DNA of 64,000 nucleotides, from positions 2,507 through 66,506 of the forward strand of contig JAMCYU010000001.1 in NCBI GenBank assembly GCA_023473585.1. Reading direction: 5' to 3'. Of the stretch, positions 12,469 to 42,902 are shown in pieces; position 1 is the stretch's first letter; every line of letters starts with the position of its first letter. The notes beneath the pieces were generated by a model. The model was not told the DNA's origin and made no database searches. It saw only the letters and a program-made list of their open reading frames with translations. A program made the translations under genes and the position numbers. Origin of the DNA: Patescibacteria group bacterium. GTDB lineage: Bacteria > Patescibacteriota > Microgenomatia > JAMCYU01.

Positions 12469-13661
12469 AAGGTTAAAAGCGCCTTCGCCACCGCCTCGTG
12501 TTCACTCCACGGATCTTCGGTTTGCCCCCGACATAAACTTTTTTCGTGTCCTTTACCGGTTAAAATAACCAAATCCTCAGGTTTGGCCATCTTGATAGCC
12601 TCTCTGATTGCTTCTTGCCGGTTGACGATTTTTCTGATTACCAAAGCTTGTTTTTCGGACCCCAAAACTTTCTTTGCCCCAAATTCTATGTCCGTCATTA
12701 TCTTCTTGGGGTCTTCGGTCCGATAATCCTCCTCGGTCAGGATCATCACGTCGTCATACCTTGCCGCCGCCTCGCCCATCATTGGTCGCTTACTGGCATC
12801 TCTTAGTCCGGCCGAACCAAAAACATGAATCAATCTCCCCTTAACAAGAGGCTTAGTCGTTGCTAAAAGATTCTCCAAAGCGTTGGGTGTGTGGGCAAAA
12901 TCCACCACCACTCTGAAATCCCGGTTGGTTTCGATAAATTCGAATCTGCCAAAAACACCTTTAAAATCAGCTAGCGTCTGGCGGATTTTTTCATCACTAA
13001 TGCCTAAAACTTGAGCCGCCGCCATCGCGGCCAGGCAATTTTTTTGATTGTATTCCCCCGGCAGGGGAGTGGTAAATAAAAATTTGGCCGGCGTTATGTC
13101 CCCGTTATTAATTCCGTAACTGACAATCTTCGTTGCTTGATACTTGATACCTGATACTAAATACTCGTATGATCCGTCTTCCCGATTGAGAATCGCCCAT
13201 TTAACGCCCCTAAACAATCTTGCTTTGGCCTTTAAATAGTTCTCATGAGTCTTATGGTAATCCAAGTGTTCATGGGTGACATTGGTCAAGACCCCGATTT
13301 GGAAATTGCAGCCGAAAACCCTGTTCTGATTAAGTCCGTGAGACGTCACCTCTAAAACCATATATTTCTCTCCCCTGTCAACGGCCAATCTTAAAAATCT
13401 CTGAAGTTTAAAAGAGGAAGGCGTGGTCACATGAAACGGCAGATCATAATCATGTCCGCCGATTTTGGCTCCCACCGAAGAAATCATGGTCACTTGTTTA
13501 CCTGCCTTCTTAAGAATTTCGTAGATTAGATTGACTGTTGTTGTCTTGCCGTCGGTCCCCGTCACGCCGATAACGATCAAATTTTTGGCCGGATAGCGGA
13601 AAAAAATTGTGGCGAGGAGAGCCACAAAAAGGTGGTAGATATTCTTCAGTCCCTGAGGCAT
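12465..13661 (-). CDS. murE: UDP-N-acetylmuramoyl-L-alanyl-D-glutamate--2,6-diaminopimelate (or L-Lys) ligase MurE
   Basis: Mur ligase P-loop VIGVTGTDGKTTT and …LTNVTHEHLDYH…. 398 aa. Contains an in-frame heptanucleotide tract (13134-13168) encoding …SGIKYQATKIV…. Confidence 0.8.
   Translation of the reverse strand: MPQGLKNIYHLFVALLATIFFRYPAKNLIVIGVTGTDGKTTTVNLIYEILKKAGKQVTMISSVGAKIGGHDYDLPFHVTTPSSFKLQRFLRLAVDRGEKYMVLEVTSHGLNQNRVFGCNFQIGVLTNVTHEHLDYHKTHENYLKAKARLFRGVKWAILNREDGSYEYLVSGIKYQATKIVSYGINNGDITPAKFLFTTPLPGEYNQKNCLAAMAAAQVLGISDEKIRQTLADFKGVFGRFEFIETNRDFRVVVDFAHTPNALENLLATTKPLVKGRLIHVFGSAGLRDASKRPMMGEAAARYDDVMILTEEDYRTEDPKKIMTDIEFGAKKVLGSEKQALVIRKIVNRQEAIREAIKMAKPEDLVILTGKGHEKSLCRGQTEDPWSEHEAVAKALLTL
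13134..13168 (-). repeat. Five tandem heptanucleotides (plus strand TGCTTGA TACTTGA TACCTGA TACTAAA TACTCGT) inside murE
   Basis: Direct reading of sequence. Encodes SGIKYQATK in frame. Confidence 0.8.
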
Positions 13662-13719
13662 GAAGCTAATTATAGCATATTAAAGGTTATGGAAAAAACT
13701 TAAGATTTATCCTTCCTCA

Positions 13720-17639: not shown

Positions 17640-17643
17640 TTTT

Positions 17644-21501: not shown

Positions 21502-21546
21502 ATTTCTATCTTAAAGGGTAAATTTAAAATTGTAAATTGGCAATTT

Positions 21547-22185
21547 TTAAATCGCCCCTCTTCCTGAAATCATCGCCCAGGGACTTTTAATTAAAATCAA
21601 AAGGTCGTCTAAAAGATTGCGTCTGTTCACGTATTCGGCATCCATACAGATTCTTTTGTCGAAATTGACTTCCGACCTGCCGGAAACCTGCCAGGCTCCC
21701 GTAATCCCAGGCTTGACGGAAAGAACAATCTTAACCAGTTTTTGCGTTTGGGGATATTTTTTTTGCTGGTCTTCCAGTTCATCAGGATAGTATGGTCTTG
21801 GCCCAACCAAACTCATGTCTCCTTTTAAAACATTAATTAATTGTGGGATTTCGTCCAAAGAATGCTTCCTGATAAATTTACCAACTCTGGTCACCCGGGG
21901 ATCTTCTTTAAGTTTGTAACTTTCTTTCTTATATTGCTCGTAAAGATCTTTAAGTTGCGGATTGGTTCTTAAAAGTTTATGGGCATTAACAATCATGGAG
22001 CGGAACTTGTAAAGCTTAAAAAGCTTGCCGTTTTGACCAACCCGTTTGGGTGTGTCAGCCAGTATCGGACCAGGAGAATCCAATTTAATGGCGATAGCCG
22101 TCACCAAACAAATGGGGGAAAAAATAAGACCCAAAATAAGGGCGCCTAAAATATCAATCGTTCTTTTTAAAAAATCAAAAGACAT
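21547..22185 (-). CDS. Polyprenyl-phosphate sugar-1-phosphate transferase (PglC/WbaP C-terminal domain-type 'bacterial sugar transferase')
   Basis: …KRTIDILGALILGLIFSPI…KLDSPGPILADTPKRVGQNGKLFKLYKFRSM…DEIPQLINVLKGDMSLVGPRP… are canonical small monotopic PGT motifs. 212 aa. Confidence 0.85.
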   Translation of the reverse strand: MSFDFLKRTIDILGALILGLIFSPICLVTAIAIKLDSPGPILADTPKRVGQNGKLFKLYKFRSMIVNAHKLLRTNPQLKDLYEQYKKESYKLKEDPRVTRVGKFIRKHSLDEIPQLINVLKGDMSLVGPRPYYPDELEDQQKKYPQTQKLVKIVLSVKPGITGAWQVSGRSEVNFDKRICMDAEYVNRRNLLDDLLILIKSPWAMISGRGAI

Positions 22186-24381: not shown

Positions 24382-24840
24382 TCAAAGAAAAAATTCGACC
24401 TTATCCCCAATCTCAATCTTAAGCTTTTTTATCAAACCCTGATTAACCTCTAAAACTTTATCAAAATTTTGTTTCGCCCTAATAATTTGCGGCTTTTCGT
24501 CTTTTTTCGGAAAAGACACGTTTTCGGAAAGATCAACCACGATGCCCTCATTAAGAAAGATAAAATCAAGATTAAATCGCATTTTGTCCATCCAAAAAGG
24601 ATAATTACCGCTTGTTCCAAAAACAAACAACATTCCGGAGTCTTTGGCTAAACTCTCTCTGTCGGACAGTCCATGAGCAATCGCCAGGGGGTCTTTGGCC
24701 ACTTCAACATAAATCGTTTCCTTCTTGATCATCACTTTTTGCCGCTTATCTTCGGAGATTATTAAAAATTTAAACCCGGCAACAAAGCCCAAAACAAGAG
24801 TCAGGAGAAAAAGAAAAATCAACCCTGAATTTTTCATCAT
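24382..24840 (-). CDS. DUF192-family protein (COG1430-like) with N-terminal TM anchor
   Basis: …GMLFVFGTSGNYPFWMDKMRFNLDFIFLNEGIVVDL… resembles the conserved DUF192 core. 152 aa. Confidence 0.55.
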   Translation of the reverse strand: MMKNSGLIFLFLLTLVLGFVAGFKFLIISEDKRQKVMIKKETIYVEVAKDPLAIAHGLSDRESLAKDSGMLFVFGTSGNYPFWMDKMRFNLDFIFLNEGIVVDLSENVSFPKKDEKPQIIRAKQNFDKVLEVNQGLIKKLKIEIGDKVEFFL

Positions 24841-25433
24841 AAATTACTTACCTCCTGATAGATTTTAAACGTTTCTCTGGCCAACTTATCCCAGGAATAT
24901 TTTTTAACCTGCTCTTGCCCTTTTCTGATCATTTCTTCTTTGTTCTGTTGTTTTAAAACATTAGAACAAACCATCTTAAGCTTTTCTGCTATATCCTTGG
25001 GGTTCTGGGGATCAAAGTATAAAGCTCCTTCACCGTAGATCTCTCGAAAAACCGGAATATCCGAGCAAACAACTAAGCAGCTGCTGGCCATCGCTTCTAA
25101 GCCTGGCAAACCAAAACCCTCCATTAAGGAAGGAAAAACTAGGGCCAAAGCCTTTTGGTAAAGACTCGTTAATTCTTCCCTTTTGGCCGGCCCATAGAAA
25201 CTCACCGACTCAGTTAATCCCATGACTTCAACTTTCTTCTTGAGCTGTTTGTAAAAATGGTCTTCTCCGCCGACAAGAATTAACTTAATACCCAATACTG
25301 AATACTTAATACTGGCGATTGCTTCAAGCAGGCGTTCAAGGTTTTTATGGGGATAGGCATTGCCTACATATAAAAAGTATTTGGTATTTAGTATTTGGTA
25401 TTTAGTATTTGGTATTATATTAGGCTGCTTCAT
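24837..25433 (-). CDS. GT4 glycosyltransferase, C-terminal Rossmann domain only (3' half of a split GT4 gene)
   Basis: Begins MKQPNIIPNTKYQILNTKYFLYVGNAYPHKN (heptamer-repeat-encoded linker, then GT4 C-domain start). Contains …EGFGLPGLEAMASSCLVVCSDIPVFREIYGEGALYF…. Overlaps the N-domain ORF by 14 nt in another frame. Confidence 0.6.
   Translation of the reverse strand: MKQPNIIPNTKYQILNTKYFLYVGNAYPHKNLERLLEAIASIKYSVLGIKLILVGGEDHFYKQLKKKVEVMGLTESVSFYGPAKREELTSLYQKALALVFPSLMEGFGLPGLEAMASSCLVVCSDIPVFREIYGEGALYFDPQNPKDIAEKLKMVCSNVLKQQNKEEMIRKGQEQVKKYSWDKLARETFKIYQEVSNL
25281..25315 (-). repeat. Five tandem heptanucleotides (TAACTTA ATACCCA ATACTGA ATACTTA ATACTGG) within the GT4 C-domain ORF
   Basis: Direct reading. 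Encodes …ASIKYSVLGIK…. Confidence 0.75.
25377..25418 (-). repeat. Six tandem heptanucleotides (GTATTTG GTATTTA)x3, i.e. a 14-nt unit x3, at the junction of the split GT4 gene
   Basis: Direct reading: gtatttggtatttagtatttggtatttagtatttggtattat. Encodes PNTKYQILNTKYF. Confidence 0.85.
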
Positions 25434-25944
25434 AAGTTACCGCTATTTTTTCCGAATTGAGATGATAGTGCTTTATAATTTCCCGTTTGGTTGTTTCCGA
25501 AACCGTGATGACCTTAACGGCCCGGTGAAGAGCAACCCACATGACCAGTTTATAACCCAACCTTTTAAGTTTATAGAGAAAAAGGGGCAAAGTCGAGGCT
25601 TTGCCGGTCTCAAAATGGTCCAGGATTAAATCATGAATGGTGACAATAAACTTTCCCGGATAAAAGATAGGCACGGAGAAATAGGGAAAATGGACAAGGT
25701 CCAATTTTTCCCGCCATAAAAGATAGGGCATGACTATTTGTTCTTTCAAGCTATGCCAGCGGATATCAATAATCATTTTTTCAAAGTTAGGTCCGGGAAG
25801 TTTAAATTCCTCAAACTCATTCTTGGCAAAGAACAAAAGATAATGGTTTTTTTGGTCAATTTTTGCCAAATTGCTTGTCAGTTCCTGAACGTAACGACCG
25901 ACACCCGTTTGTTTCCATAATCTGGCATCAATTCCGATTTTCAT
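25420..25944 (-). CDS. GT4 glycosyltransferase, N-terminal Rossmann domain only (5' half of a split GT4 gene)
   Basis: MKIGIDARLWKQTGVGRYVQELTSNLAK… is a typical GT4 N-domain. Ends …EKIAVTYEAA at a position equivalent to the inter-domain linker of the intact paralog 33825-34979. Confidence 0.6.
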   Translation of the reverse strand: MKIGIDARLWKQTGVGRYVQELTSNLAKIDQKNHYLLFFAKNEFEEFKLPGPNFEKMIIDIRWHSLKEQIVMPYLLWREKLDLVHFPYFSVPIFYPGKFIVTIHDLILDHFETGKASTLPLFLYKLKRLGYKLVMWVALHRAVKVITVSETTKREIIKHYHLNSEKIAVTYEAA

Positions 25945-25956
25945 ACTAAAAACTTT

Positions 25957-26820: not shown

Positions 26821-26821
26821 T

Positions 26822-33234: not shown

Positions 33235-33235
33235 A

Positions 33236-33832
33236 TTATTGGAAGAGCCTGGCTCGTCCCAGACGGTATTGGGGATCTTTAAGCTGTCTTTCGGCAATCG
33301 GCTTGGCCGGAACACCACCTACCACCGTAAATTCAGGCACGTCTTTGGTTACCACCGCGCCGGCGGCCAAAATCGCTCCCCTGCCCACTTTAACCCCGGG
33401 CTGAATCATCACTCTCGGGCCGATAAAAACATAGTCAGCGATGGTCACGGGTGCACTGATCGCTTCAAAATCAGGACTATGGATGTTATGTTTGGCGTTA
33501 TAAATAAGAACCTGAGAGGCGATATCGACATGATCGCCGATAGAAAGAGGCGCCCGGCCGTCCAAAAAGACATGATCGCCGATGATCGTATCTTCGCCGA
33601 TGGTCACGCCTTTGGGATCAAAAAAATTCGCCCACATATGAATAATTGAGCCTTTGCCGATTTTCACGCCGGCAAGTTTATAAACCCAACGCCTGACAAA
33701 GTGCAACGGCACATGTCCTATCAATCGCAAAATCATAATTTCAAAATCAAGCCAGTAGTTATAAAGCCGGTTGACAATTTTCAGCAAAGCCTGGCTGAAA
33801 CTTAGTTCTAGACCATTTTTATCTTTAAACAT
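33236..33832 (-). CDS. Hexapeptide-repeat (left-handed beta-helix) sugar O-acetyltransferase (WbbJ/Maa-like)
   Basis: …IGDHVFLDGRAPLSIGDHVDIASQVLIYN… and …YVFIGPRVMIQPGVKVGRGAILAAGAVVTKDVPEFTVVGGVPAKPI…. 198 aa. Confidence 0.75.
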   Translation of the reverse strand: MFKDKNGLELSFSQALLKIVNRLYNYWLDFEIMILRLIGHVPLHFVRRWVYKLAGVKIGKGSIIHMWANFFDPKGVTIGEDTIIGDHVFLDGRAPLSIGDHVDIASQVLIYNAKHNIHSPDFEAISAPVTIADYVFIGPRVMIQPGVKVGRGAILAAGAVVTKDVPEFTVVGGVPAKPIAERQLKDPQYRLGRARLFQ

Positions 33833-34979
33833 GTTTTTCTCCTACTTGTTTTAAAACATTTAACGTCTCTTTGGCGCATTTTTCCCAGCTGAATTTACTT
33901 GCCTGGATTTTCCCTTTTTCAATCAGCACCATTCTTTCATCACTCTCTATCGTTAAGACCTTTTCCAGGCCTTGGATAATGTCTTGGCTATCGTTAGGAT
34001 CAACCAGAATCCCCGCCTCGCCAACCACTTCCGGAAGACTGGAAGTATTTGAGGTAACAACCGGACAACCATAGTTTAAAGCTTCCAAAACCGGCAAACC
34101 GAATCCCTCATAAAGACTGACCAAAACAAAACATTTGGCCTTTTGATAAAGAGCTGGCAGATCCTCATCCGGCACATAATCTAAAAATTTAACCTTCCTT
34201 TCGACGCCGAATTTGCGGGGCGCTTCATAAATCTCCCGATAAAGCCAGCCGGGCTTCCCGACGATAACCAGGGTATAGGGATTGGGATTTAAAGAAGAAA
34301 AGGCCTCAATTAATTTAACAAAGTTTTTCCTCGGCTGCAGCGTCCCCACCGATAAAATGTAGTCATTTTCTATACCGTATTTCTTTTTTATCTCTTCCAT
34401 ACTTAATACTTGATACTTAATACTTGTTACTTGTGTCAGTCCCGGATACGTCACCACTACTTTATCTTCTGCTATTTGATAATACTTAATTATATCACGC
34501 TTCGAAGCTTGCGAGATAGTTAAGACCTTTCTGGCTTTTTTAACCGAATAGGCGGTCCAGTTTTTAAGCTGATAAAGATCGCTTTTTTTAAACATTTCCG
34601 GATATTTCAAAAACGAAAGGTCCATGACGGAAACGACTCTGGGAAAGGGACAAAATCGAGGCGCGTAATGAGTGGGTGTAAAAAAAACGTCAATCTTTTC
34701 TTTTTCACTTAACTTATTTTTCAAAAGCGCCAAGGGCAAGCCTAATTGCGTCCATAACTTTTTGGGGCCGACGATTTTATATTTCCACCGCTCGGTCTCG
34801 TTAGGCAAATCTATCGATGGCTTGTTTTTTAAATATACTTGATAATTAATACTTGATTCTTGATACCTGTCGAATTGTTTTAACAATTCAAAGGCATACC
34901 TGCCTACTCCGACCCTGGTTTTGAAATTAGCCTCATTACCATCAACACCAATTAAAAGAGTTTTTGTCTTGTCTTGCAT
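33825..34979 (-). CDS. Glycosyltransferase family 4 (GT-B), intact paralog of the split/truncated GT4 genes
   Basis: N-domain …LLIGVDGNEANFKTRVGVGRYAFELL…. C-domain …YILSVGTLQPRKN…SLYEGFGLPVLEALNYGCPVVTSNTSSLPEVVGEAGILVDP…. Two in-frame heptanucleotide tracts encode …SSINYQVYLKN… and …TQVTSIKYQVLSM…. Confidence 0.75.
   Translation of the reverse strand: MQDKTKTLLIGVDGNEANFKTRVGVGRYAFELLKQFDRYQESSINYQVYLKNKPSIDLPNETERWKYKIVGPKKLWTQLGLPLALLKNKLSEKEKIDVFFTPTHYAPRFCPFPRVVSVMDLSFLKYPEMFKKSDLYQLKNWTAYSVKKARKVLTISQASKRDIIKYYQIAEDKVVVTYPGLTQVTSIKYQVLSMEEIKKKYGIENDYILSVGTLQPRKNFVKLIEAFSSLNPNPYTLVIVGKPGWLYREIYEAPRKFGVERKVKFLDYVPDEDLPALYQKAKCFVLVSLYEGFGLPVLEALNYGCPVVTSNTSSLPEVVGEAGILVDPNDSQDIIQGLEKVLTIESDERMVLIEKGKIQASKFSWEKCAKETLNVLKQVGEKHV
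34399..34433 (-). repeat. Five tandem heptanucleotides (ATACTTA ATACTTG ATACTTA ATACTTG TTACTTG) in the GT4 inter-domain linker
   Basis: Direct reading. Encodes TQVTSIKYQVLS. Confidence 0.85.
34835..34869 (-). repeat. Five tandem heptanucleotides (ATACTTG ATAATTA ATACTTG ATTCTTG ATACCTG) in the GT4 N-domain
   Basis: Direct reading. Encodes DRYQESSINYQVY. Confidence 0.8.
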
Positions 34980-35056
34980 AAATAAATTCTTTTATGAGAT
35001 TTACTATATTGCTTTAAAGTAATATAGTTTTTAGCCTTATTTTCTACGTTCTTCTC

Positions 35057-35608
35057 TTAAATTCTCCTCCAGTCTTCCACTTTCCCCGGATAAGTTACTT
35101 TTAGTCTTTTCTCTTCAATCCCTAAAATTTGCATGGCATCCCGTTTTGTGCTTTCGGAAATAGAAAAAATAACCGCTGACTCTTTTTTAACCCATTTAAG
35201 CTTCCTTTTTTGAGTCGCCACGATTTTTTTAGCGGTTTCCTCTGGATATTTGTAAACGATAAGATCATACAAAATGGTGGCTTTTTTAGCCTTTAATACC
35301 GGCGGTTCGGTCCAGTCAGAAGTAATAAAGATGTCAACGTCTCCGATAAACCATTCTATGGGGAAAAGATGCAGTCTGTTCCAGAGAAAAGCCAATAGAG
35401 CAAGTGGCAGCCAGAATGTTTTAAGCCGAACATTATTATGCTTGATACTTGATACTGGAAACTTAATACTTTTCCTCAAACTTGAAAAAAACAGAACATA
35501 CTCATTTTTTTTGTCTATCTTTAACAAGTTCTCCACCAAATTCCCTAAATAAGAAGCGACTCCGGTTTTCTCATACGCCATCTGACTAATATCAATGCCT
35601 ATTCTCAT
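35057..35608 (-). CDS. GT4 N-terminal-domain-only ORF (truncated paralog; possible gene remnant)
   Basis: 183 aa. MRIGIDISQMAYEKTGVASYLGNLVENLL… is homologous to the N-domains of 25420-25944 and 33825-34979. Ends …RLKVTYPGKVEDWRRI at the inter-domain linker, and only 77 nt separate it from the next gene. Contains the heptamer tract 35438-35472. Confidence 0.5.
   Translation of the reverse strand: MRIGIDISQMAYEKTGVASYLGNLVENLLKIDKKNEYVLFFSSLRKSIKFPVSSIKHNNVRLKTFWLPLALLAFLWNRLHLFPIEWFIGDVDIFITSDWTEPPVLKAKKATILYDLIVYKYPEETAKKIVATQKRKLKWVKKESAVIFSISESTKRDAMQILGIEEKRLKVTYPGKVEDWRRI
35438..35472 (-). repeat. Five tandem heptanucleotides (ATGCTTG ATACTTG ATACTGG AAACTTA ATACTTT)
   Basis: Direct reading. 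Encodes …KSIKFPVSSIKHN…. Confidence 0.75.
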
Positions 35609-36869: not shown

Positions 36870-38253
36870 AAACGCGACGAAACTGATTATTGTTTGGATT
36901 CTTCTCTTGTCTATCCTCTATTCTCTGCTTTCAATTCTACGCCACAATCATTTTCAATCCGGCGGCTTTGATCTGGGCCTCTATGATCAGACTGTTTGGC
37001 AATATTCTAAGTTTTTAACTCCCTACAACACGATTAAGGAACGTTTTATCCTGGGAGACCACTTAACCCTGACCTTACCCTTACTTGCTCCCTTGTTCTT
37101 TGTCTGGGACGACGTTAGAATTTTGCTTGTCTTCCAGGCTTTTTGGATAAGTTTTTCTACCTTAGCTATCTATAAGCTCTGTTTAAAACGCGGTTTGTCT
37201 CCTTTTGCCTCACTTAATTTGAGTTTCATTTATAGTCTTTTTTATGGGATACAGTTTGCCATCTTTTTTGATTTTCATCCTGTAATTATCGGAGTAGGAC
37301 TGATTGCCTGGTTAGTATATTTTTTAGAAAGCCATCAATCTAAATTGTTTGCAGTCACCCTTGTTCTTCTTCTTTTAACCCAGGAAAATATGGGTCTTGC
37401 TCTTACCTCCTTGGGCTTAATTTATCTTTTCCGGCAAAAATATCGGTCTTTAGCTATAACTTTTATTTTTGGCGGTCTTCTTTGGAGTTTATTAGCCACG
37501 AAAATCGTCGCTTTCTTTTCCCCTGTCGGCTTTCAGTATACACCGGAATTTGTCTTCAATCCCCTAAAAATTCTAGGCGGTTTTTTTGACTCAGAAGAAA
37601 AAAGGCTTGTCTGGATTTATTCTTTTAGCTGGTTTGCTTTTCTTCCGCTGCTTTCTTTGGGTTCATTCCTGGCCGTCTCTTTTGATCTGGCGCAATATTT
37701 TGTTACCGGCCAGGAATTTGCCCGCATGTGGAGCCCATACATGCATCACCGGGCGATCTTGGCGCCATATTTAGTTTTGGGAGTTTTAGAAACCATGGAG
37801 GTTTTTAAAAGGAAAGGGGTAAATCTTGAGAAAATTTCTGTTTTTTTAGTTATTATTAGCCTGGGCTTACAATATTTTCTCCATTTTCCCCTAAACAAAC
37901 TGACAAAACCCATTTATTGGCAAGACGAAACATGGATGACGGATAACCAAAAATTATTAAAAAGGATTCCCGATAATGTCAGTCTTGTTGCTCAACAAAA
38001 TCTTATTCCCCACTTATCTCACCGTAAGGAGATCTATTTAGTCTGGCCAAGACAGCATGAGGGCCAATGGTGGCTTGATTTTGGCGGTAAACCGCGATAC
38101 TTAGTCGTTGACCTTCATCCGAATCAGTGGCTGACACAATTATTGGAGAGCAATGAAAATTTTGAAGCGGCGGTTAAAAATATGGAAAGTGCCGGCAGAT
38201 TAACTTTAGTCACCTCGGTCAATAAATCACTCCTTTTCAAAATTAACGATTAA
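36826..38253 (+). CDS. DUF2079-like polytopic membrane protein (putative GT-C-like)
   Basis: 475 aa. N-terminal TM then …LRHNHFQSGGFDLGLYDQTVWQYSKF…, resembling the conserved start I associate with DUF2079. About 10 further TM helices and a C-terminal soluble domain. It is the only internal plus-strand gene in the first 56 kb. Confidence 0.5.
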   Translation: MILTLIIEEMSRLNKNATKLIIVWILLLSILYSLLSILRHNHFQSGGFDLGLYDQTVWQYSKFLTPYNTIKERFILGDHLTLTLPLLAPLFFVWDDVRILLVFQAFWISFSTLAIYKLCLKRGLSPFASLNLSFIYSLFYGIQFAIFFDFHPVIIGVGLIAWLVYFLESHQSKLFAVTLVLLLLTQENMGLALTSLGLIYLFRQKYRSLAITFIFGGLLWSLLATKIVAFFSPVGFQYTPEFVFNPLKILGGFFDSEEKRLVWIYSFSWFAFLPLLSLGSFLAVSFDLAQYFVTGQEFARMWSPYMHHRAILAPYLVLGVLETMEVFKRKGVNLEKISVFLVIISLGLQYFLHFPLNKLTKPIYWQDETWMTDNQKLLKRIPDNVSLVAQQNLIPHLSHRKEIYLVWPRQHEGQWWLDFGGKPRYLVVDLHPNQWLTQLLESNENFEAAVKNMESAGRLTLVTSVNKSLLFKIND

Positions 38254-39410
38254 TTCTCTTTAACAAATTCTTTGTATTCGCTCTGAAAAACTTTTTCCCA
38301 TTTATAGTCAGACAATTTATTCTGAAATTTTCTTTTTAAGAAATCTGCGGACAGAATATAATTAGCTACAGATGTCGCGTCTCCTTTTGGGAAAAGAACC
38401 AGTTGTCCGCTCTCGATAAATTTTTTGAAAACGTCGTGATATTCTGGAAGATTATAAGCAATAACCGGTTTATTGATAACCATGGCTTCTAAAACGGCAA
38501 TGGTCATTCCTTCAGCGTAGCTGGGAGATAAGAAAAAATCGCAATTTCTAAAAAGATCGCCCTTTTCTTTGCCTCTTTTATAACCGACAAAAATCATATT
38601 CTTTTCTAACTTGCAAGAACCGACCTTGTCTTTCAACGGTTTCTTATGATAAGAGGCTCCGTCACCCATAATCCCTAAAGTGAAATTTTTTCTTCGCCTA
38701 ACTATTTTTTTCATGATTTCCGCTAAGTCAAAAATTCCTTTGGCCGGGTGGAGTCTGGCCCCAAATAAAGCGTTAAACTTTGGGGTTTTTCCGGAAATTT
38801 TTCCACTAAAAATTTCCGGTTCGATGCCATAATAATCATTTGTTTTAATTACTTTTATTCCCCTTTTTTCATAATATTTTTTAAGATAATTAGGAACGAC
38901 AAAAATGGCATCGGTCTTTTTGAGAAGGAAATTTGAAAATAAAAAAGCAAGATATGGGACGGTTTTTAAGAAAAGACTACCGGGTCTTTCCTGTGGTTTA
39001 GGAACGGTATTGTCAACGTTAACATACCAACGTATTTTTTTATTTAACATTTTTATTAAAAAGGGAATAAAGATTAAATCCAAAGTTGATGACAGTGAAT
39101 AAATAATGTCAACACTTCCTTTGACTTCAAAAATCAAAGGAAGGGCCAGAATATTGACCTTTAAAAAATCTGTGATGGCAGAATAATATTCCTTGCTTTT
39201 CCATTTGAAAGAAAAGGTATGGTAAGTAATTTGTTTTACCTGGCTTTGATAAAATCGCTGCGCCTCCGACGAACAAAGAAGAGAAACTGCTAGGTCTCTT
39301 TTTTGCCAATACTTTATTCTTAAAATCATAGGAACGCGATTAACGCCCTTTGAATAGCTGGGGTCGCAAACCAATATTCGCAAATGTTTCTTTGGAAAAT
39401 TCTTTTTCAT
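38250..39410 (-). CDS. Glycosyltransferase family 4 (GT-B); paralog of 50651-51787
   Basis: C-domain …FFLSPSYAEGMTIAVLEAMVINKPVIAYNLPEYHDVF…. The N-terminus (…ILVCDPSYSKGVNRVPMILRIKYWQKRDLAVSL…) is closely similar to 50651-51787 (…ILVYDTNFVPGISRVIPVIKIKYWQKHDCQITI…). Confidence 0.7.
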   Translation of the reverse strand: MKKNFPKKHLRILVCDPSYSKGVNRVPMILRIKYWQKRDLAVSLLCSSEAQRFYQSQVKQITYHTFSFKWKSKEYYSAITDFLKVNILALPLIFEVKGSVDIIYSLSSTLDLIFIPFLIKMLNKKIRWYVNVDNTVPKPQERPGSLFLKTVPYLAFLFSNFLLKKTDAIFVVPNYLKKYYEKRGIKVIKTNDYYGIEPEIFSGKISGKTPKFNALFGARLHPAKGIFDLAEIMKKIVRRRKNFTLGIMGDGASYHKKPLKDKVGSCKLEKNMIFVGYKRGKEKGDLFRNCDFFLSPSYAEGMTIAVLEAMVINKPVIAYNLPEYHDVFKKFIESGQLVLFPKGDATSVANYILSADFLKRKFQNKLSDYKWEKVFQSEYKEFVKEN

Positions 39411-40858
39411 GATTTTATCAATAAACTCTTAAGACTTTTACTAATTATTCTTTTCATTAAAAAAATATCTGGTAAAACCGTTTTAAAATAAAATTTCATA
39501 TTTTGTAATAAGGCTGATTTCTCCATCTGATAAATTATCTTAAGATATTTTTTATGATAACGATATTTCGTATTTAAAAATATCCTGTCCTTTAAAAAAT
39601 CCGGTGGGTCTTTTTTAAAAAAATCAAGAAGATTTAAAGAAGGAAGTTGCACGAATAATTGACTGTATTCAATCTTGTCACTTAACAGTTTGTTTTCTTT
39701 TGAGTATTCCCAGATTTTCGTGCCCGGATAGGGTGTTAAAATATAGATATGGGTATTGTCCAAGGGGTATTTTTTCATAAACTCATAGGTTTTTTTAAGA
39801 TCGGCTAATGTTTCGCCTGGGGTTCCCACAATATACCCACTGCTACTGGTTAAATTATATTTTCGACAAAGAGTTACGGCTCTTTTATTATCGGCAACGG
39901 TGACGGAATTTTGCTTTAAATAATTTAAAATTCTTTCGGAGCCACTTTCTAATCCAAAGATTAATCGCTTAACGTTCATTTTTTTTAAAATTAAACAAAT
40001 TCTTTCATTAATAAGATTCGCCCTGGCATAACCAAAAAAGGTTAGCTTTTTATTTAAGCCATTTTTCTCTATTAATTCCGCCAATTTTTTAACGCGTTCT
40101 TCCGGAGCTATAAAAAGGTCATCCCAAAACATAATCCCGTCAATTTCATATTTATTTATCAGGTGTTTTATTTCTTTAAGAACGTATTCCGGTGAATGAA
40201 AACGCACTCTTCCCCATTGAACGGGAGAACCGCAAAAGACACAATGATATGGACACCCTCTTGAAGTCATAATCGTCGCCATCCTTCTTACCCCAAAAAG
40301 ATTTATTTGGTCTTTTAAATAAAATTCTTCCATGGGCACTAGTTCTCTGGCCGGAAATGGTAATTCGTCTATATTTTCTATCAACTCCCTTTTCCCAGTT
40401 TTAAATATCTTTGCGTTTTTGAGAAAAATAACGCCTTTTATCTTTTCTATTTTTTTTAAGGGAAACTTGTGATCCTTCTTATAAATCTCGATAAGCTCAA
40501 GAAGGGTTTTTTCCCCTTCACCGATAACGCCTAAATCAAAAACGGGGTCAAAAGATTCGGGTGAAGCGGAAATATGAATACCGCCAATAAATAAAAAAGC
40601 TTTTACTCTTTTCTTGATTTCTTTTGCGCTCTCTAGAGTTTTTTCAAACATCAAAGTGTCGCTCGTAAAGCCGATAATATCCGCGTTAGCCCTAATTATT
40701 TCAGGGATGGGGTTTTCTCCTTCAATAATCTTAACTTTTACCTCTGGTGATTTTTGCTTAATATGGGCAGCAAGAGATAAAAGACCAAAGTGAGGAGATT
40801 GAGCCGGAAACTTCCAAAAGTTTACAAGCAACAGCAAAATTTTAGTCTTTTTTTTCAT
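39407..40858 (-). CDS. B12-binding domain / radical SAM protein (class B radical SAM-like)
   Basis: 483 aa. N-terminal cobalamin-binding-like Rossmann region (…IGFTSDTLMFEKTLESAKEIKK…FLFIGGIH…). Radical SAM CxxxCxxC motif …MTSRGCPYHCVFCGSP…. Confidence 0.7.
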   Translation of the reverse strand: MKKKTKILLLLVNFWKFPAQSPHFGLLSLAAHIKQKSPEVKVKIIEGENPIPEIIRANADIIGFTSDTLMFEKTLESAKEIKKRVKAFLFIGGIHISASPESFDPVFDLGVIGEGEKTLLELIEIYKKDHKFPLKKIEKIKGVIFLKNAKIFKTGKRELIENIDELPFPARELVPMEEFYLKDQINLFGVRRMATIMTSRGCPYHCVFCGSPVQWGRVRFHSPEYVLKEIKHLINKYEIDGIMFWDDLFIAPEERVKKLAELIEKNGLNKKLTFFGYARANLINERICLILKKMNVKRLIFGLESGSERILNYLKQNSVTVADNKRAVTLCRKYNLTSSSGYIVGTPGETLADLKKTYEFMKKYPLDNTHIYILTPYPGTKIWEYSKENKLLSDKIEYSQLFVQLPSLNLLDFFKKDPPDFLKDRIFLNTKYRYHKKYLKIIYQMEKSALLQNMKFYFKTVLPDIFLMKRIISKSLKSLLIKS

Positions 40859-42902
40859 TTCTTTGGCCGGATAAAATGATGAGGGTTACCGCAGATATCA
40901 ATAATGTCAAAACAGTAATGGCCATGCCAAAAGAAAGATATTTTTGAGATGAATATTCCACGATAATATTTTTGTTTTTGTTTTCGTCAATTTTAAAACT
41001 ATTAAATCGATCATAAATTTTTTGCGATTTAATCTCTTTTCCATCGATCTTAACTTTCCATTGAGGATCATAATTTTCCGAAAAACCTAAAACTACGGGC
41101 TTATTGAAATTTTTAATCGTTACCAAATATTGCGTCGGATTAATCATCCGCCATTCTATAGAGCCATCCTCTTGCGTTAAGTTTTCTAACCAAAAACGGT
41201 CGGTAAAATTTTGCGTTTCATAAACAGCGCTTTTTTCAAATGTTTTTACCTTCCGAAAAGAAATAATTTTATCAAGACTTTTTTCCAGTTGGACTCGTGT
41301 GACGGAATCGTATTGTCTATCCTTGATAAAAAGCTCTTCCTCACTATCGTACGGCAGAATTACGTATTTTACTCCGGATAAAAAAAGTTCTCTTTCTCCT
41401 TCTTTGGTCTTTAATTTATCTACCACCGAAGAAGCGTTTTCTAAATTAAAAAAATAAAGACCGTCAATGGCTGGATGATTATCAGAGTAAAAAGCAAAAC
41501 GCTGTTTCTGTGGAATCCAAAAGGTTCTAAAAAAACCAGGTTGATCATTAATAAAATTCTTTAAGTCAACATATTCTCGTGGAATGATTTTGGGCTTAAA
41601 AGTCCCGTTCAATTCTCCGCTCCAGGCTGGTTTGATTAAAAGCAGCAAGCAGCAAGCCACAAGCAGCAAGAATAAACTTGGTATGTATTTTTTAAATTTT
41701 AACCATTCATATATTTTCCAAGTGCTGTATGGAATCAAAACGCTATAGGAAAGAGCCACGAGCGTATAAAATTTAGTCGAGTCCCTAAACATCACCATGC
41801 CCGGAAGATAGTTAAACAAACCTAAATAAATCTCACCGAATGGCCAATTACTGCCCTTGGCTAAAAACGCACCCGCCAGTCCCAAAATTACAAAAAATAT
41901 TATTACCGACTCGCTATCTGATCGAAAAGTCGTTTGTTTCTCTTCGCAGTTTTGAATTTTAACCTGTACTTTTGACTTTTGCTTCGTGACTTTTGACTTA
42001 TTAACAAAAAGCAAACTACTAAAGGCTAATATTGGTATAAAAAGGAACTCCCATTTCATAAAGTAACTCTTTCCGAAAATATTCTCTGGCCAGTTGGGAT
42101 GCAAAAGTGAAAGAGTGTTTTCAAGTTTGGCAAAGCTAAAAAAATTCACCGCGTCGCTGCTTGTATGCGCCAAAGACATTGAACCGGCAGGATTTTCAAA
42201 ATTAAAAAGAAAAGGCAGTAACCAAAAACCGTGGATACCCAAAATAATCAGTCCCGCCATTACTAAGAAAATGATTATTTTTTTGTAATTTTGCAAAAAT
42301 TGTCCGTAGAAAAAAAGACTGTAAAAAATTAAAAGACCCATCCCCAAATAGGCGATGCGAAAATCCCAGGCGACAAGGAGAGCAAGGATTAAGCCAAAGA
42401 TAATCGCTTTCTTTGCCGATGCTTTTTCCCAAAAACTAACAAAGACGGCCAGAGTTAACGGGATTAAAAGATAAGCCAAGACAACCGTTAATTGCCCGCC
42501 GCCCATAATCATTAAAAAATAGCTGTTAAGAAAAAAGATAAAAGAGGAAAGAAAGAAGAATTTTCTGGGAAAAAGCTTCAGTTGCCCGGCTAAAATTGCC
42601 GGGAAAAGAAGTCCGGAGAGAACAATGGGGAAAAACCATAATATCCTTTCTATTGTCGAATAAGAAAAAAATTTCCCTAAAAAACCCAAAGGGACGTTGT
42701 AAAAATATACACCCTGAAACAGCAAGGAGTTTCCTCCAAGCCCGGCATTTCTAAATGTCTCCCAAGAAAAGGGTAAATTAAAATATCCCACTATTTGCTC
42801 CGGATAAAAAAAACTCCAATCACCGGCCGTAATTAAACCACCAAAAAACCAATTCTTAAAAACAAAGAAAATAACAACCAATAATGCTAAAAACCCCATC
42901 AT
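40842..42902 (-). CDS. Giant polytopic membrane protein, paralog family A (GT-C-like; N-terminal ~13 TM domain, large extracytoplasmic C-terminal domain, terminal TM anchor)
   Basis: 686 aa. Shares with 43243-46620 and 46613-48688 the motifs KG.N.PFGE.Y (…AKGSNWPFGEIY…), FR..ST, and the C-terminal …IEY..Q…FG…TM helix. Contains two heptanucleotide tracts. Confidence 0.5.
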   Translation of the reverse strand: MMGFLALLVVIFFVFKNWFFGGLITAGDWSFFYPEQIVGYFNLPFSWETFRNAGLGGNSLLFQGVYFYNVPLGFLGKFFSYSTIERILWFFPIVLSGLLFPAILAGQLKLFPRKFFFLSSFIFFLNSYFLMIMGGGQLTVVLAYLLIPLTLAVFVSFWEKASAKKAIIFGLILALLVAWDFRIAYLGMGLLIFYSLFFYGQFLQNYKKIIIFLVMAGLIILGIHGFWLLPFLFNFENPAGSMSLAHTSSDAVNFFSFAKLENTLSLLHPNWPENIFGKSYFMKWEFLFIPILAFSSLLFVNKSKVTKQKSKVQVKIQNCEEKQTTFRSDSESVIIFFVILGLAGAFLAKGSNWPFGEIYLGLFNYLPGMVMFRDSTKFYTLVALSYSVLIPYSTWKIYEWLKFKKYIPSLFLLLVACCLLLLIKPAWSGELNGTFKPKIIPREYVDLKNFINDQPGFFRTFWIPQKQRFAFYSDNHPAIDGLYFFNLENASSVVDKLKTKEGERELFLSGVKYVILPYDSEEELFIKDRQYDSVTRVQLEKSLDKIISFRKVKTFEKSAVYETQNFTDRFWLENLTQEDGSIEWRMINPTQYLVTIKNFNKPVVLGFSENYDPQWKVKIDGKEIKSQKIYDRFNSFKIDENKNKNIIVEYSSQKYLSFGMAITVLTLLISAVTLIILSGQRNEKKD
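41641..41675 (-). repeat. Tandem heptanucleotides (AGCAGCA AGCAGCA AGCCACA AGCAGCA AGAATAA)
   Basis: Direct reading. Encodes …LLLVACCLLLLIK… in a TM segment. Confidence 0.75.
41968..42002 (-). repeat. Five tandem heptanucleotides (ACTTTTG ACTTTTG CTTCGTG ACTTTTG ACTTATT)
   Basis: Direct reading. Encodes …NKSKVTKQKSKVQVK…. Confidence 0.8.

What the first reader, a model, noticed from the sequence alone, without database searches (positions are those of the whole stretch)
13134..42002. Recurrent ~35-nt tracts of five tandem heptanucleotides embedded in-frame in coding sequences
At least eight tracts share one architecture. Each is about five tandem heptamers, with a common unit-unit-variant-unit-variant pattern. 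Plus-strand units are ATACTTG/ATACTTA (13134-13168 in murE; 25281-25315; 34399-34433; 34835-34869; 35438-35472), GTATTTG/GTATTTA (25377-25418), AGCAGCA (41641-41675) and ACTTTTG (41968-42002).

All lie inside minus-strand ORFs and are translated, giving 7-aa-periodic peptides (SIKYQVL, KSKVQVK, CCLLLAA). They occur in an essential PG-synthesis gene (murE), three paralogous GT4 genes and a giant membrane protein.

A heptamer unit is not a multiple of 3, so gain or loss of a single unit frameshifts. One GT4 gene carrying such a tract is indeed split into two overlapping ORFs. Tandem heptanucleotide repeats are known as intergenic STRR elements in heterocystous cyanobacteria. A dispersed, fixed-length (5-unit), in-frame, coding-sequence version has not, to my knowledge, been described. 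The uniform ~35-nt size argues for a templated or site-specific process rather than random slippage.
Basis: seen in the sequence. Interest (0 to 1): 0.75.

Follow-up and report, generated by a model that had tools for sequence, protein, structure and literature searches.

The report
Heptamer-repeat selfish DNA inside CPR genes
Six ~35-base runs of five 7-base repeats that are translated inside cell-wall and sugar-transferase genes of this tiny groundwater (CPR) bacterium are real. They match the arms of a little-known hairpin element that carries a small four-helix-bundle gene, so they look like selfish repeat DNA tolerated inside proteins rather than ordinary slippage.

Summary
Period-7 tracts are far in excess (6 against 0.03 expected), and no other period is enriched.

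Six of the eight tracts form one family, (NNNGTAT)x4-6: 14 pattern matches at 6 sites against 0.00 expected. The tracts at 41641 and 41968 are unrelated and weaker.

The window is a Patescibacteria (Microgenomates-group) MAG with 96% coding density. All tracts are translated, and they sit in a disordered linker, variable loops or gene ends.

A related species (Ks about 0.5-0.7) has tracts at the same sites and in the same register, but often with other units. In two cases every unit carries the same substitution, which is concerted evolution. The GT4 split is old and under purifying selection, not a recent slippage frameshift.

In related CPR genomes, 4-5 NNNGTAT units in inverted orientation flank small S23p/23S-rRNA-IVS-family genes wedged into operons. 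This held for all 12 arms of six cassettes. ORF-less hairpins and solo arrays of the same family lie in-frame in other genes. Among 54 unselected S23p genes, 26 have an upstream period-7 array.

Best reading: these are copies of an IVS-like, heptamer-armed repeat family, comparable to Rickettsia palindromic elements, kept uniform by slippage or conversion. It is a new variant of known kinds. How it spreads is unresolved.

The parts
13133..13168 (-). GTAT-family heptamer array of about 4 units (GTATTTA GTATCAG GTATCAA GTATCAA G) inside the Mur-ligase (murE-annotated) gene. Translated as YLVSGIKYQA.
   Evidence: The site is a variable loop in 27 orthologues. The related species has (TTSAAAA)x4-5 at the same site with conserved flanks.
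25281..25315 (-). GTAT-family array of 5 units in the C-half of the split GT4 gene, translated as ASIKYSVLGIKL. It forms the 3' arm of an inverted pair with 25377-25418.
   Evidence: The orthologous segment in L540 is only weakly periodic. An in-frame array lies at the same GT4 position in metagenome locus L213.
25370..25418 (+). GTAT-family array of 6 units. GTATTTR reads on the + strand, so the coding (-) strand reads YAAATAC; this is the orientation of a cassette's right arm. It is translated as residues 6-19 (IIPNTKYQILNTKY) of the GT4 C-half. The N-half ORF stops at a TAA at the array's degenerate 5' edge.
   Evidence: L540 has (YAAAGAC)x5 in the same register, with the same substitution in every unit. 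The same peptide, MKLNTKYKILNTK, is made from the right arm of the S23p cassette in L607.
25281..25422 (-). Hairpin formed by the two arrays above. Arms are 33 nt and 82-84% complementary, with a spacer of 62-76 nt (depending on the register in which the arms are paired) that encodes the conserved FLYVGNAYPHKN... core.
   Evidence: The RNA fold is -33.1 kcal/mol against -23.05 +/- 3.4 for shuffles, z = -2.95. The arms are not complementary in L540, so a function is doubtful.
34399..34433 (-). GTAT-family array of 5 units with strict C/T alternation (CAAGTAA CAAGTAT TAAGTAT CAAGTAT TAAGTAT) in the inter-domain linker of the full-length GT4. Translated as QVTSIKYQVLSM.
   Evidence: The AF2 model shows coil, with mean pLDDT 59 for residues 181-190 and below 50 at 186-188. 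Orthologues either lack it, have it, or have it 7 aa longer. L541 has the same array and L540 has AAGTCAA/AATTTAA units.
34835..34869 (-). Degenerate GTAT-family array of 5 units at the N-terminal helix-end/loop/beta-2 of the same GT4. Translated as DRYQESSINYQVY.
   Evidence: L540 has (TCAAATT)x4 at this site. Across 103 orthologues, identical residue pairs at lag 7 number 224, against 63-107 at other lags.
35438..35472 (-). Decaying GTAT-family array of 5 units in the stand-alone N-half GT4 gene. Translated as KSIKFPVSSIKH.
   Evidence: L540 has a cleaner (YAAGTAT)x5 at the same site.
41641..41675 (-). Period-7 tract that is not of the GTAT family (TTGCTGC units), inside a transmembrane helix of the YfhO-like protein.
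   Evidence: L540 has TTGCTAC in the three matching units.
41968..42002 (-). Weak, low-complexity period-7 tract (AAGTCAA-like) in a lysine-rich loop of the YfhO-like protein. Not of the GTAT family.
21510..21553 (-). Intergenic AAATTT-core period-7 tract between the Bac_transf and DUF4012 genes. It was not in the finding.
   Evidence: The tract and the surrounding ~120 nt are nearly identical to the related species (4 differences, none inside the tract).
12465..13661 (-). Host gene: Mur ligase (M and C domains; NCBI annotates it as MurE).
   Evidence: Ka/Ks 0.115.
24837..25944 (-). Host gene: GT4 split into an N-half (25420..25944) and a C-half (24837..25433), overlapping by 14 nt.
   Evidence: The split is conserved in L540. 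Ka/Ks is 0.13 and 0.11. The intact orthologue in L076 has a 30-aa linker at this position.
33825..35608 (-). Host genes: the stand-alone N-half GT4 (35057..35608) and the full GT4 (33825..34979). In L542 and L603-L606 an S23p cassette with GTAT arms sits exactly between these two genes. The window has 77 nt there and no array.

Best explanation
Six of the tracts belong to a lineage-restricted repeat family: arrays of about 4-6 tandem NNNGTAT heptamers, roughly 28-42 nt.

**The family in related CPR genomes.** The same arrays, in inverted orientation, form the two arms of small hairpin cassettes. Each cassette encloses a 120-130-aa four-helix-bundle gene of the S23p / 23S-rRNA-intervening-sequence family. 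The cassettes are wedged between co-directional genes. ORF-less hairpins and single arms of the same family also occur, including in-frame inside genes.

**In this window.** The copies are single arms plus one inverted pair. They survive inside genes under three conditions:
- The orientation and frame avoid stop codons.
- The total length keeps the reading frame.
- The site is a disordered linker, a variable loop or a gene end.

They are translated into SIKYQVL- or NTKYQIL-type peptides. One array, in the stop-containing orientation, sits where a GT4 gene was divided long ago into two translationally overlapping, still-selected halves.

**After an array exists.** It behaves like a heptanucleotide microsatellite. 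Units are homogenised by slippage or conversion, which shows up as concerted evolution. Unit sequences drift or are replaced. Lengths change in steps of three units (21 nt, 7 aa).

**Shown.** The family identity, the cassette architecture, the orthologous persistence, the concerted change and the permissive locations.

**Inferred.** That the window's solo arrays derive from, or are copied from, such elements. The copying mechanism is unknown; candidates are ectopic conversion or template switching nucleated at short local seeds, or insertion followed by trimming.
For: **Family and excess.**

**Patchy, lineage-specific density.**
- Window: 9.4 sites per 100 kb.
- L541 plus L542: 34 per 100 kb.
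- CPR loci carrying S23p genes: 67 per 100 kb.
- 52 other low-GC murE loci: 0 sites in 844 kb.

**Cassettes.**
- In L542, a relative with 70% GT4 identity, a 124-aa PF05635/PF22296 gene lies between the same two GT4 genes as in the window. It is flanked by (WAAGTAT)x5 and (ATACTTW)x5, and the arms pair in the minimum-free-energy fold.
- Levybacteria L603-L606 have the same arrangement.
- In all six CPR cassettes read, all 12 arms are 4-5 NNNGTAT units. In most of them the left arm runs into the ATG start codon. In four of the six the gene's TAA stop lies inside the right arm.

**Derivatives.**
- L609 has an ORF-less hairpin between atpA and atpG.
- L611 has an in-frame hairpin and a solo array inside a giant ORF, translated as VSGISYLVSSM...QNTNYNIQNT and GILNTKYKIQDT.
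- The L607 right arm is translated as MKLNTKYKILNTK, compared with the window's NTKYQILNTKY.

**Generality.**
- Of 54 distinct S23p genes taken from viral contigs without regard to repeats, 26 have an upstream lag-7 array and 14 a downstream one. Lags 5, 6, 8 and 9 give 0-2.
- Where both arrays were seen, the downstream one is the reverse complement of the upstream one.
- Strictly defined arrays are 4.0-6.0 units long, median 4.9.
- Coxiella's S23p IVS has tandem GACAGAT heptamers just upstream of its ORF and a 28-bp stem cut by RNase III (PMC4990558).

**In-frame copies elsewhere.** Hosts identified from their translated sequences (no domain search was run on these ORFs) include LigA, DnaX, Fmt, MiaA, SufS, a FolC-like protein, Leu/Ile/Val/Met-tRNA synthetases and a GT4 at the window's 25281 position. 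Orientation is sense in 35 cases and antisense in 9.

**Permissive sites.** Alignments; AF2 model.

**Stop filter.** CAAGTAT is stop-free only in the sense orientation.

**In-situ evolution.**
Against: - No S23p gene is present in the 64-kb window, in 42 kb of the related species, or in the 80 murE loci. The rest of this genome could not be read.
- At orthologous sites the related species often carries other units (AAAATTS, TCAAATT, AAGTCAA), in the same register and at the same length.
- The GT4 N-terminal site is 7-aa periodic with many different units across about 100 orthologues. Arrays therefore also arise or turn over without any visible cassette.
- Array edges merge into conserved host codons: YQVY = TATCAAGTATAT, VSSM = GTATCAAGTATG, EYL = GAGTATTTA. 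This fits local seeding.
- The arrays replace variable segments with almost no net change in length, rather than adding to them. This holds for murE, GT4 against L082 and LeuRS against 1h3n, where the net change is +3 aa.
- Heptamer tandem repeats of any unit are common. Permuted control units gave 65, at least 120 and 63 viral contigs, against 87 for YAAGTAT.
- Heptanucleotides are the commonest long simple repeats in prokaryotes (Mrazek 2007, as cited in PMC4679880).
Confidence: 0.55

Rival explanations
1. Purely local heptanucleotide microsatellites. Each tract arose by tandem duplication of a 7-nt seed in its own gene. Replication slippage maintains it, and selection filters for frame, absence of stops and loop length. 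On this view the resemblance to S23p cassette arms is coincidental, or the cassettes merely borrow a common unit.
For: - Period-7 arrays of many different units are in general excess: 22 arrays against 0-3 for periods 5, 6, 8, 9 and 10 in 1.33 Mb, and 29 against at most 5.
- There is concerted evolution and unit turnover at orthologous sites.
- Length variants differ by 7 aa.
- Local seeds lie in conserved codons.
- Permuted control units are equally common in viral contigs.
- The literature proposes a polymerase-slippage explanation for the excess of heptamers (PMC4679880, PMC4692102).
Against: - It does not explain why five or six unrelated sites in one genome share the GTAT core while 844 kb of comparable CPR loci have none.
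- It does not explain why the same unit family and length, and in one case the same translated peptide, recur as cassette arms, ORF-less hairpins and in-frame arrays in many different genes and genomes.
- Single-unit slippage would frameshift an essential gene such as murE.
Confidence: 0.27
2. Phase-variable contingency loci. Gain or loss of heptamer units switches surface-glycan glycosyltransferases on and off, as the heptanucleotide repeat in neuO does in E. coli K1.
For: - Seven of the nine tracts lie within the 17-kb glycosyltransferase and envelope cluster from 25281 to 42002.
- Seven is not a multiple of three.
- neuO sets a precedent (PMC13001214, title and abstract).
Against: - No unit-number difference was seen between three assemblies.
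- The in-frame state and the register are conserved in a species at Ks about 0.5-0.7.
- The arrays are short (4-6 units) and imperfect.
- The same arrays occur in murE and, elsewhere, in tRNA synthetases and DNA ligase.
- The GT4 split is ancient and both halves are under purifying selection.
Confidence: 0.05
3. Selection at the protein level for a SIKYQVL-like peptide motif, with the DNA periodicity as a by-product.
For: The same peptide recurs in many proteins.
Against: - The peptide is simply the three-frame read-out of one heptamer.
- The periodicity is at 7 nt. Orthologous sites carry unrelated peptides (LKLKIQKSK, SQISNFKFQ) that are equally 7-nt periodic.
- One tract lies in a disordered linker.
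- The same units occur untranslated, as cassette arms.
Confidence: 0.02

Closest known systems
23S rRNA intervening sequences carrying an S23p ORF (Coxiella, Leptospira, Brucella, Xanthomonas family PF05635)
   Same: - A small four-helix-bundle gene is enclosed by terminal inverted repeats that form a stem of about 28-35 bp.
- In Coxiella, tandem heptamers (GACAGAT, 2-3 copies plus one degenerate copy) lie just upstream of the ORF, and their number varies between strains (PMC4990558).
- The CPR cassettes in relatives have the same layout.
   Different: - The elements here are not in rRNA. They lie between or inside protein-coding genes.
- The window has only solo arms and one ORF-less pair, and no S23p gene.
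- The arrays are translated.
- RNase III processing has not been tested.
Rickettsia palindromic elements (RPE): selfish repeats inserted in-frame in protein-coding genes. From my own knowledge of Ogata et al. 2000; the term appears in PMC1779305 and PMC10969869 (listed), neither of which was opened.
   Same: - A dispersed repeat family occurs in-frame and translated in unrelated genes, some of them essential.
- The copies sit at structurally permissive sites.
- The host is a reduced genome.
- A palindromic version exists: in-frame hairpins in L203, L240, L256 and L611.
   Different: - RPEs are 100-150 bp of unique palindromic sequence, not arrays of heptamers.
- RPEs have no associated ORF-carrying master copy.
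- Here most copies are single arms of about 35 nt, and they replace variable segments rather than simply adding length.
TAACTGA direct repeats of Beggiatoaceae, cyanobacteria and Bacteroidetes (MacGregor 2015, PMC4679880), and cyanobacterial heptamer repeats including the Nostoc trnL-intron P6b hairpin (PMC4476775)
   Same: - Genome-specific heptamer units occur in sets of 2-6.
- ORF-internal copies are found only in the stop-free orientation and in variable loops.
- Hairpin stems are built from complementary heptamer arrays.
- One unit class replaces another at the same site.
   Different: - The unit is different (NNNGTAT) and so is the phylum (CPR).
- Nearly all copies here are in coding sequence, because the genome is 96% coding.
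- The link to S23p cassettes was not reported for those systems.
Heptanucleotide phase-variation repeats (neuO AAGACTC)
   Same: A heptamer array lies inside a coding sequence of a surface-modification enzyme.
   Different: No variation in unit number was seen. The arrays are short and imperfect, conserved in-frame, and also present in essential genes.

Membership tests
Tandem heptanucleotide repeat families (STRR / TAACTGA-type long simple repeats) | At least 3 tandem 7-nt units, beyond chance | tested here: met
Tandem heptanucleotide repeat families (STRR / TAACTGA-type long simple repeats) | One unit family recurring at many loci of a genome and rare in other genomes | tested here: met
   Six sites in 64 kb against 0 in 844 kb of other low-GC CPR loci.
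Tandem heptanucleotide repeat families (STRR / TAACTGA-type long simple repeats) | Mainly intergenic, often just upstream of start codons | tested here: not met
   All six are inside ORFs, although the window is 96% coding.
S23p-ORF intervening-sequence (IVS) elements | Terminal inverted repeats forming a long stem | tested here: inconclusive
   Only 25281/25377 form a pair (33 nt, 82-84% complementary, fold z = -2.95), and that pair is not conserved in L540. The other four arrays have no partner.
S23p-ORF intervening-sequence (IVS) elements | S23p / four-helix-bundle ORF (PF05635) in the loop | tested here: not met
   An HMM built from five S23p proteins finds none in the window. The ORF is present in the relatives L542, L603-L607, L609, L611 and L613.
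S23p-ORF intervening-sequence (IVS) elements | Arms of the same sequence family as the window's tracts | tested here: met
   All 12 arms of six CPR cassettes are 4-5 NNNGTAT units.
S23p-ORF intervening-sequence (IVS) elements | Located in 23S rRNA helix 25 or 45 and excised by RNase III | tested here: not met
   There is no rRNA in the window; Rfam returns nothing. Cleavage by RNase III cannot be tested with these tools.
RPE-like in-frame selfish repeats | Same repeat in-frame and translated in unrelated genes, including essential ones | tested here: met
   Window: Mur ligase and three GT4 genes. Elsewhere: tRNA synthetases, LigA, DnaX, Fmt, MiaA and SufS, identified from their translated sequences.
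RPE-like in-frame selfish repeats | Located at structurally permissive sites | tested here: met
   Variable or gapped alignment columns. AF2 shows a linker with pLDDT 59, falling below 50.
RPE-like in-frame selfish repeats | A clean insertion relative to orthologues that lack it | tested here: inconclusive
   Orthologues without the tract are 3-12 aa shorter at the murE and GT4-linker sites. In other comparisons the array replaces a segment of equal length.
RPE-like in-frame selfish repeats | Palindromic unit of about 100-150 bp | tested here: not met
   The copies are solo arrays of about 35 nt. Hairpin versions of 80-140 nt exist in L611, L609 and at window 25281-25422.
Phase-variable contingency repeats | Unit-number polymorphism or frameshifted alleles among close relatives | tested here: not met
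   The tracts are identical in three assemblies. They are in-frame and in register in the related species. Read-level heterogeneity could not be tested.

The most novel reading that the evidence does not exclude
The five-heptamer arrays are recognition sites for the ring-shaped S23p / Avd-like four-helix-bundle proteins. The Xanthomonas S23p is a homopentamer (PMC4990558), as is the related DGR protein bAvd (my own knowledge). On this reading one subunit binds one 7-nt unit. The cassette arms would be the protein's own binding or processing site. The solo arrays scattered through mRNAs or genes would be secondary targets. They would form either a post-transcriptional regulon or the substrate of a protein-guided copy mechanism that writes heptamer arrays into permissive sites. 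This would also give the 30-year-old orphan S23p family, and the heptamer repeats of cyanobacteria, Beggiatoa and Xanthomonas, a function.
Probability: 0.12. Interest if true: 0.85.

Novelty: new variant of a known kind. Interest (0 to 1): 0.62.

Why it matters
Three separately known oddities would turn out to be one system, and it appears widespread in CPR bacteria. The three are heptanucleotide repeat families of unknown origin, the orphan S23p genes of rRNA intervening sequences, and in-frame selfish repeats in reduced genomes.

It would show that even very small, 96%-coding CPR genomes carry proliferating repeat DNA inside essential genes: a Mur ligase here, and tRNA synthetases, DNA ligase and DnaX elsewhere. 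It would show that such DNA can split genes into stable halves.

It gives a concrete, testable candidate for what S23p proteins bind.

It also matters in practice. These arrays add 9-13 spurious residues to proteins, they may contribute to breaks in metagenome assemblies, and they can be mistaken for frameshifts or pseudogenes.

Tried and rejected
- **Assembly artefact.** Rejected. Three assemblies agree.
- **Strain-level change in unit number.** None found. All 39 differing alignment columns between the window and GCA_023380895.1 lie elsewhere.
- **YAAGTAT as a globally special unit.** Rejected. Permuted control units are as common in viral contigs, so the raw metagenome and viral hits are not evidence for one element.
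- **S23p gene in the window or its close relative.** None. None of the 120 best S23p homologues lies on the window's 138-kb contig or on the relative's 788-kb contig.
- **Remnant array in the 77-nt spacer between the N-half GT4 and the full GT4.** This is where L542 and L603 carry the cassette. None found.
- **The 25281/25377 hairpin as a conserved structure.** It is not complementary in L540.
- **The GT4 split as a recent frameshift.** Rejected.
- **Diversity-generating retroelement.** The Avd-like Pfam hit (PF22296) on the L542 gene suggested this. There is no Avd-like gene in the window. I did not search for a template/variable repeat pair or a reverse transcriptase; the genes around the L542 copy are glycosyltransferases.
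- **Rfam.** No family matches anywhere in the window.
- **Heptamer signal at the murE loop as universal.** Only 6 of 81 orthologous loops show it. A seventh hit, in L072, is at a different loop.
- **Whole-cassette fold energy.** Not significant (z = -1.27), although the arms do pair.

Full report
**Organism and context**

The window is from a Patescibacteria (CPR) MAG of the Microgenomates group, close to Gottesmanbacteria by the names sources give to its proteins.
- The same DNA is present in GCA_023380895.1 at 99.8% identity and in a Logan assembly of SRR10267473 at 100%.
- Nearly every gene is on the minus strand.
- ORFs of at least 100 aa cover 96% of the window.
- The region 1-24 kb is a dcw/mur cluster. 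The region 24-46 kb is an envelope-glycosylation cluster with GT4, GT2, Wzy_C-like and YfhO-like genes.

Yes.
- Self-similarity at lag 7 gives 6 tracts against 0.03 expected at a threshold of 21/28, and 8 against 0.27 at 19/28. Other lags (4-6, 8-13, 15) give 0-2; only lag 14, the double of 7, also rises.
- Six tracts form one family. The pattern (GTATNNN)3GTAT with up to 2 mismatches gives 14 matches at six sites, against 0.00 in 100 shuffles.
- At five sites GTAT reads on the coding strand, giving units such as YAAGTAT.
- At 25377-25418 GTAT reads on the opposite strand, so the coding strand reads YAAATAC.
- The tracts at 41641 (TTGCTGC, in a transmembrane helix) and 41968 (weak, lysine-rich) are not of this family.
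- A ninth period-7 tract lies between genes at 21510-21553.
- Unit numbers are about 4-6, not exactly five.

**Translation and where the tracts sit**

All six lie in ORFs that have Pfam support and Ka/Ks of 0.11-0.18 against a related species.
- The Mur-ligase tract (YLVSGIKYQA) is in a loop that varies in sequence and length among 27 orthologues.
- An AlphaFold model of the full GT4 has mean pLDDT 86.9. It places the 34399 tract in the disordered inter-domain linker: mean pLDDT is 59 for residues 181-190 and below 50 at residues 186-188.
- The same model places the 34835 tract on a helix end, a loop and strand beta-2.
- Tandem CAAGTAT has no stop codon in any frame on the sense strand, but its complement does. 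This explains the common orientation. MacGregor made the same argument for TAACTGA (PMC4679880).
- Because the window is 96% coding, being in a gene is not in itself remarkable.

**The split GT4**

The N-half (25420..25944) and the C-half (24837..25433) overlap by 14 nt.
- An intact orthologue in L076 has a 30-aa linker at the position where the window has 51 nt, made mostly of the YAAATAC array.
- The N-half frame ends at a TAA at the degenerate edge of the array. The C-half starts at an ATG created inside the T-Y-E codons and reads through the array.
- The same split occurs in GCA_040960625.1.
- Ka/Ks is 0.13 for the N-half and 0.11 for the C-half.
- The array is therefore associated with an old, stable gene fission, not with a recent one-unit frameshift.
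- The stand-alone N-half GT4 (35057..35608) is likewise conserved in L540, L541, L542 and L603.

**Comparison with a related species (Ks about 0.5-0.7)**

L003 and L540 are syntenic with window positions 2.5-45 kb. Every tract site has a period-7 tract in the same register and of nearly the same length, but the units often differ.

| Site | Window unit | Related species unit |
|---|---|---|
| murE (13134) | GTATCAA | TTSAAAA |
| 34835 | CAAGTAT-like | (TCAAATT)x4 |
| 34399 | YAAGTAT | AAGTCAA/AATTTAA |
| 35438 | YAAGTAT, decaying | YAAGTAT, cleaner |
| 25377 | YAAATAC | YAAAGAC |
| 41641 | TTGCTGC | TTGCTAC |

- At 25377 every unit carries the same substitution; at 41641 all three matching units do. 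That is concerted evolution.
- Across 103 GT4 orthologues the N-terminal site is 7-aa periodic. Identical residue pairs at lag 7 number 224, against 63-107 at other lags.
- Examples of the peptides are KYQISNIKYQIY, EFRISNFEFRIY and YTYHLSPITYHVY. Some variants are 7 aa longer.
- At the linker, orthologues either lack the tract, have SSIKYQVLSM, or have a version 7 aa longer.
- Array edges merge into conserved host codons: YQVY = TATCAAGTATAT, VSSM = GTATCAAGTATG, EYL = GAGTATTTA, TKI = ACAAAAATT.
- Once present, arrays therefore behave as long-lived, self-homogenising heptamer microsatellites, and their length changes in three-unit steps.

**The link to S23p cassettes**

In L542, whose GT4 is 70% identical, a 124-aa gene sits exactly between the N-half GT4 and the full GT4.
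- The gene matches PF05635 (23S_rRNA_IVP) and PF22296 (bAvd).
- It is flanked by (WAAGTAT)x5 on one side and (ATACTTW)x5 on the other. The arms are 35 nt and 83% complementary, and they pair in the minimum-free-energy fold.
- Levybacteria L603-L606 have the same gene at the same place.

Homologues about 70% identical to this gene are very common in Patescibacteria, mostly on short contigs.

Six cassettes were read. They lie in four contexts:
- N-half GT4 | full GT4;
- atpG | atpD;
- thyA | folA;
- between two large ORFs with the same DUF2341/Laminin_G_3 domains, which looks like one gene split in two.

In all six, all 12 arms are 4-5 NNNGTAT units. In most of them the left arm runs into the ATG start codon. 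In four of the six the gene's TAA stop lies inside the right arm.

Derivatives of the cassette also exist:
- L609 has an ORF-less hairpin between atpA and atpG. It keeps the ...AGTATGGA... junction.
- L611 has an in-frame hairpin and a solo array inside a giant ORF with no internal stops. They are translated as VSGISYLVSSM...QNTNYNIQNT and GILNTKYKIQDT.
- The L607 right arm is translated as MKLNTKYKILNTK, which is almost the window's NTKYQILNTKY.

**Generality and specificity**

An unselected sample of 54 distinct S23p genes from viral contigs gave a clear result.
- 26 have a lag-7 array within 120 nt upstream, and 14 have one downstream.
- Lags 5, 6, 8 and 9 give 0-2.
- Where both arrays were seen, the downstream one is the reverse complement of the upstream one.
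- Units differ from element to element.
- Strictly defined arrays are 4.0-6.0 units long, median 4.9.

Part of this is in the literature. In Coxiella, tandem GACAGAT heptamers lie just upstream of the S23p ORF of its IVS, their number varies between strains, the 28-bp stem is cut by RNase III, and the Xanthomonas S23p is a homopentameric ring (PMC4990558).

GTAT arrays are patchy across genomes.

| Sequence set | GTAT-array sites per 100 kb |
|---|---|
| Window | 9.4 |
| Related species (L003 + L540) | 2.4 |
| L541 + L542 | 34 |
| CPR loci with S23p genes | 67 |
| 52 other low-GC murE loci (844 kb) | 0 |

In metagenome contigs retrieved with the YAAGTAT pattern, in-frame arrays sit in many genes. 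I identified these hosts from their translated sequences; no domain search was run on them.
- They include LigA, DnaX, Fmt, MiaA, SufS, a FolC-like protein and Leu/Ile/Val/Met-tRNA synthetases.
- One sits in a GT4 at the same position as the window's 25281 tract.
- In-frame hairpins (left arm, short loop, right arm) occur in L203, L240 and L256.
- Orientation within long ORFs is sense in 35 cases and antisense in 9.
- I did not verify that these contigs come from CPR bacteria.

**What argues for caution**

- No S23p gene is in the window, in 42 kb of the related species, or in the 80 murE loci.
- Arrays with other units occupy the same sites in relatives.
- Heptamer arrays of any unit are common. 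Permuted control units gave 65, at least 120 and 63 viral contigs, against 87 for YAAGTAT.
- In 1.33 Mb of loci not selected for repeats, period 7 gives 22 arrays against 0-3 for the other periods tested. Twenty of the 22 are 3.6-5.6 units long.
- The arrays usually replace a variable segment without adding length. This holds for murE, GT4 against L082 and LeuRS against 1h3n, where the net change is +3 aa.
- Simple insertion does not predict that pattern. Conversion or template switching nucleated at short seeds, or insertion followed by trimming, would fit it.
- I could not separate these mechanisms.

**Conclusion**

The best-supported reading has confidence about 0.55. The six GTAT tracts are copies of a CPR repeat family whose complete form is an IVS-like hairpin cassette with heptamer arms and an S23p gene.
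- In this window the copies are passenger DNA translated in permissive parts of proteins.
- One copy marks an ancient gene fission.
- Slippage or conversion keeps them periodic.

The main rival is purely local microsatellites, at about 0.27. Phase variation (0.05) and selection at the protein level (0.02) are poorly supported.

The closest known systems are S23p intervening sequences, Rickettsia palindromic elements and the TAACTGA/cyanobacterial heptamer repeats. This case combines features of all three in a new phylum, so I rate it a new variant of a known kind.

Noticed in passing
L543-L602 (viral contigs); also L520, L213, L243, L224: S23p / 23S_rRNA_IVP four-helix-bundle genes in general are embedded in hairpins whose stems are arrays of about 4-6 tandem heptamers. 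Of 54 unselected genes, 26 have an upstream lag-7 array, against 0-2 for other lags. The unit differs from element to element (AGAAGGC, GTCTGTA, AACGTTG, GGAGAGT and others). In the searchable literature I found this reported only for Coxiella.
   Followed up: yes
L609 2458-2913 and 1492-1601; L613 2466-2899; L607 2453-2935: CPR S23p cassettes sit inside conserved operons: atpG|atpD and thyA|folA. One lies between two large ORFs with the same DUF2341/Laminin_G_3 domains, which looks like one gene split in two. An ORF-less derivative hairpin lies between atpA and atpG.
   Followed up: partly
window 21510-21553: An intergenic AAATTT-core period-7 tract lies between the Bac_transf and DUF4012 genes. 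The tract and the surrounding ~120 nt are nearly identical to the related species (4 differences, none inside the tract), although Ks elsewhere is about 0.5. It may be a promoter or leader element. AAATTT-core heptamers are self-complementary.
   Followed up: no
window 26609-26996 and 32720-32732: All differences between the window and GCA_023380895.1 (39 differing alignment columns over 21 kb, counting mismatches and gap positions) fall in two patches: 29 substitutions within 390 nt at the GT2/GT4 junction, and a 13-nt mismatch/indel patch. They look like recombination tracts.
   Followed up: no
L055 2793-2894; L068 3284-3384; L072 10572-10624: Anaerolineae (Chloroflexi) loci carry roughly 100-nt back-to-back inverted heptamer arrays (GCGTATT / ACGCAAT type). 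One also has an in-frame (TCCAACC)x6 array in murE, at a different loop from the CPR tract.
   Followed up: no
Proteins P0011, P0016, P0017 (MurE loop); P0145, P0148, P0162 (GT4 N-terminal site): Some orthologues carry extra insertions of 20-46 aa exactly at the heptamer-array sites, for example SFGKPFGTSSGRGLRMMLSKVEAS.... These look like a second kind of translated small element landing in the arrays. From my own recollection (no paper was read for this), it recalls the small dispersed repeats reported inside heptamer repeats in Nostoc.
   Followed up: no
L366, L385, L409, L425 (all from viral contig IMGVR_UViG_3300031949_000082); also L411, L483, L520, L525, L528: Some viral contigs carry many dispersed copies of a three-unit heptamer array used only as a control pattern. 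Contig IMGVR_UViG_3300031949_000082, for example, has more than ten (YAATTGA)x3 sites on both strands. Genome-specific dispersed heptamer arrays therefore also occur in phages.
   Followed up: no
L240 (LeuRS), near its C-terminus: The same LeuRS gene carries both a GTAT-type in-frame hairpin and a separate AAATTC-type array (NSKFKIQNSKFQS). The second is a 9-aa insertion relative to T. thermophilus LeuRS.
   Followed up: partly
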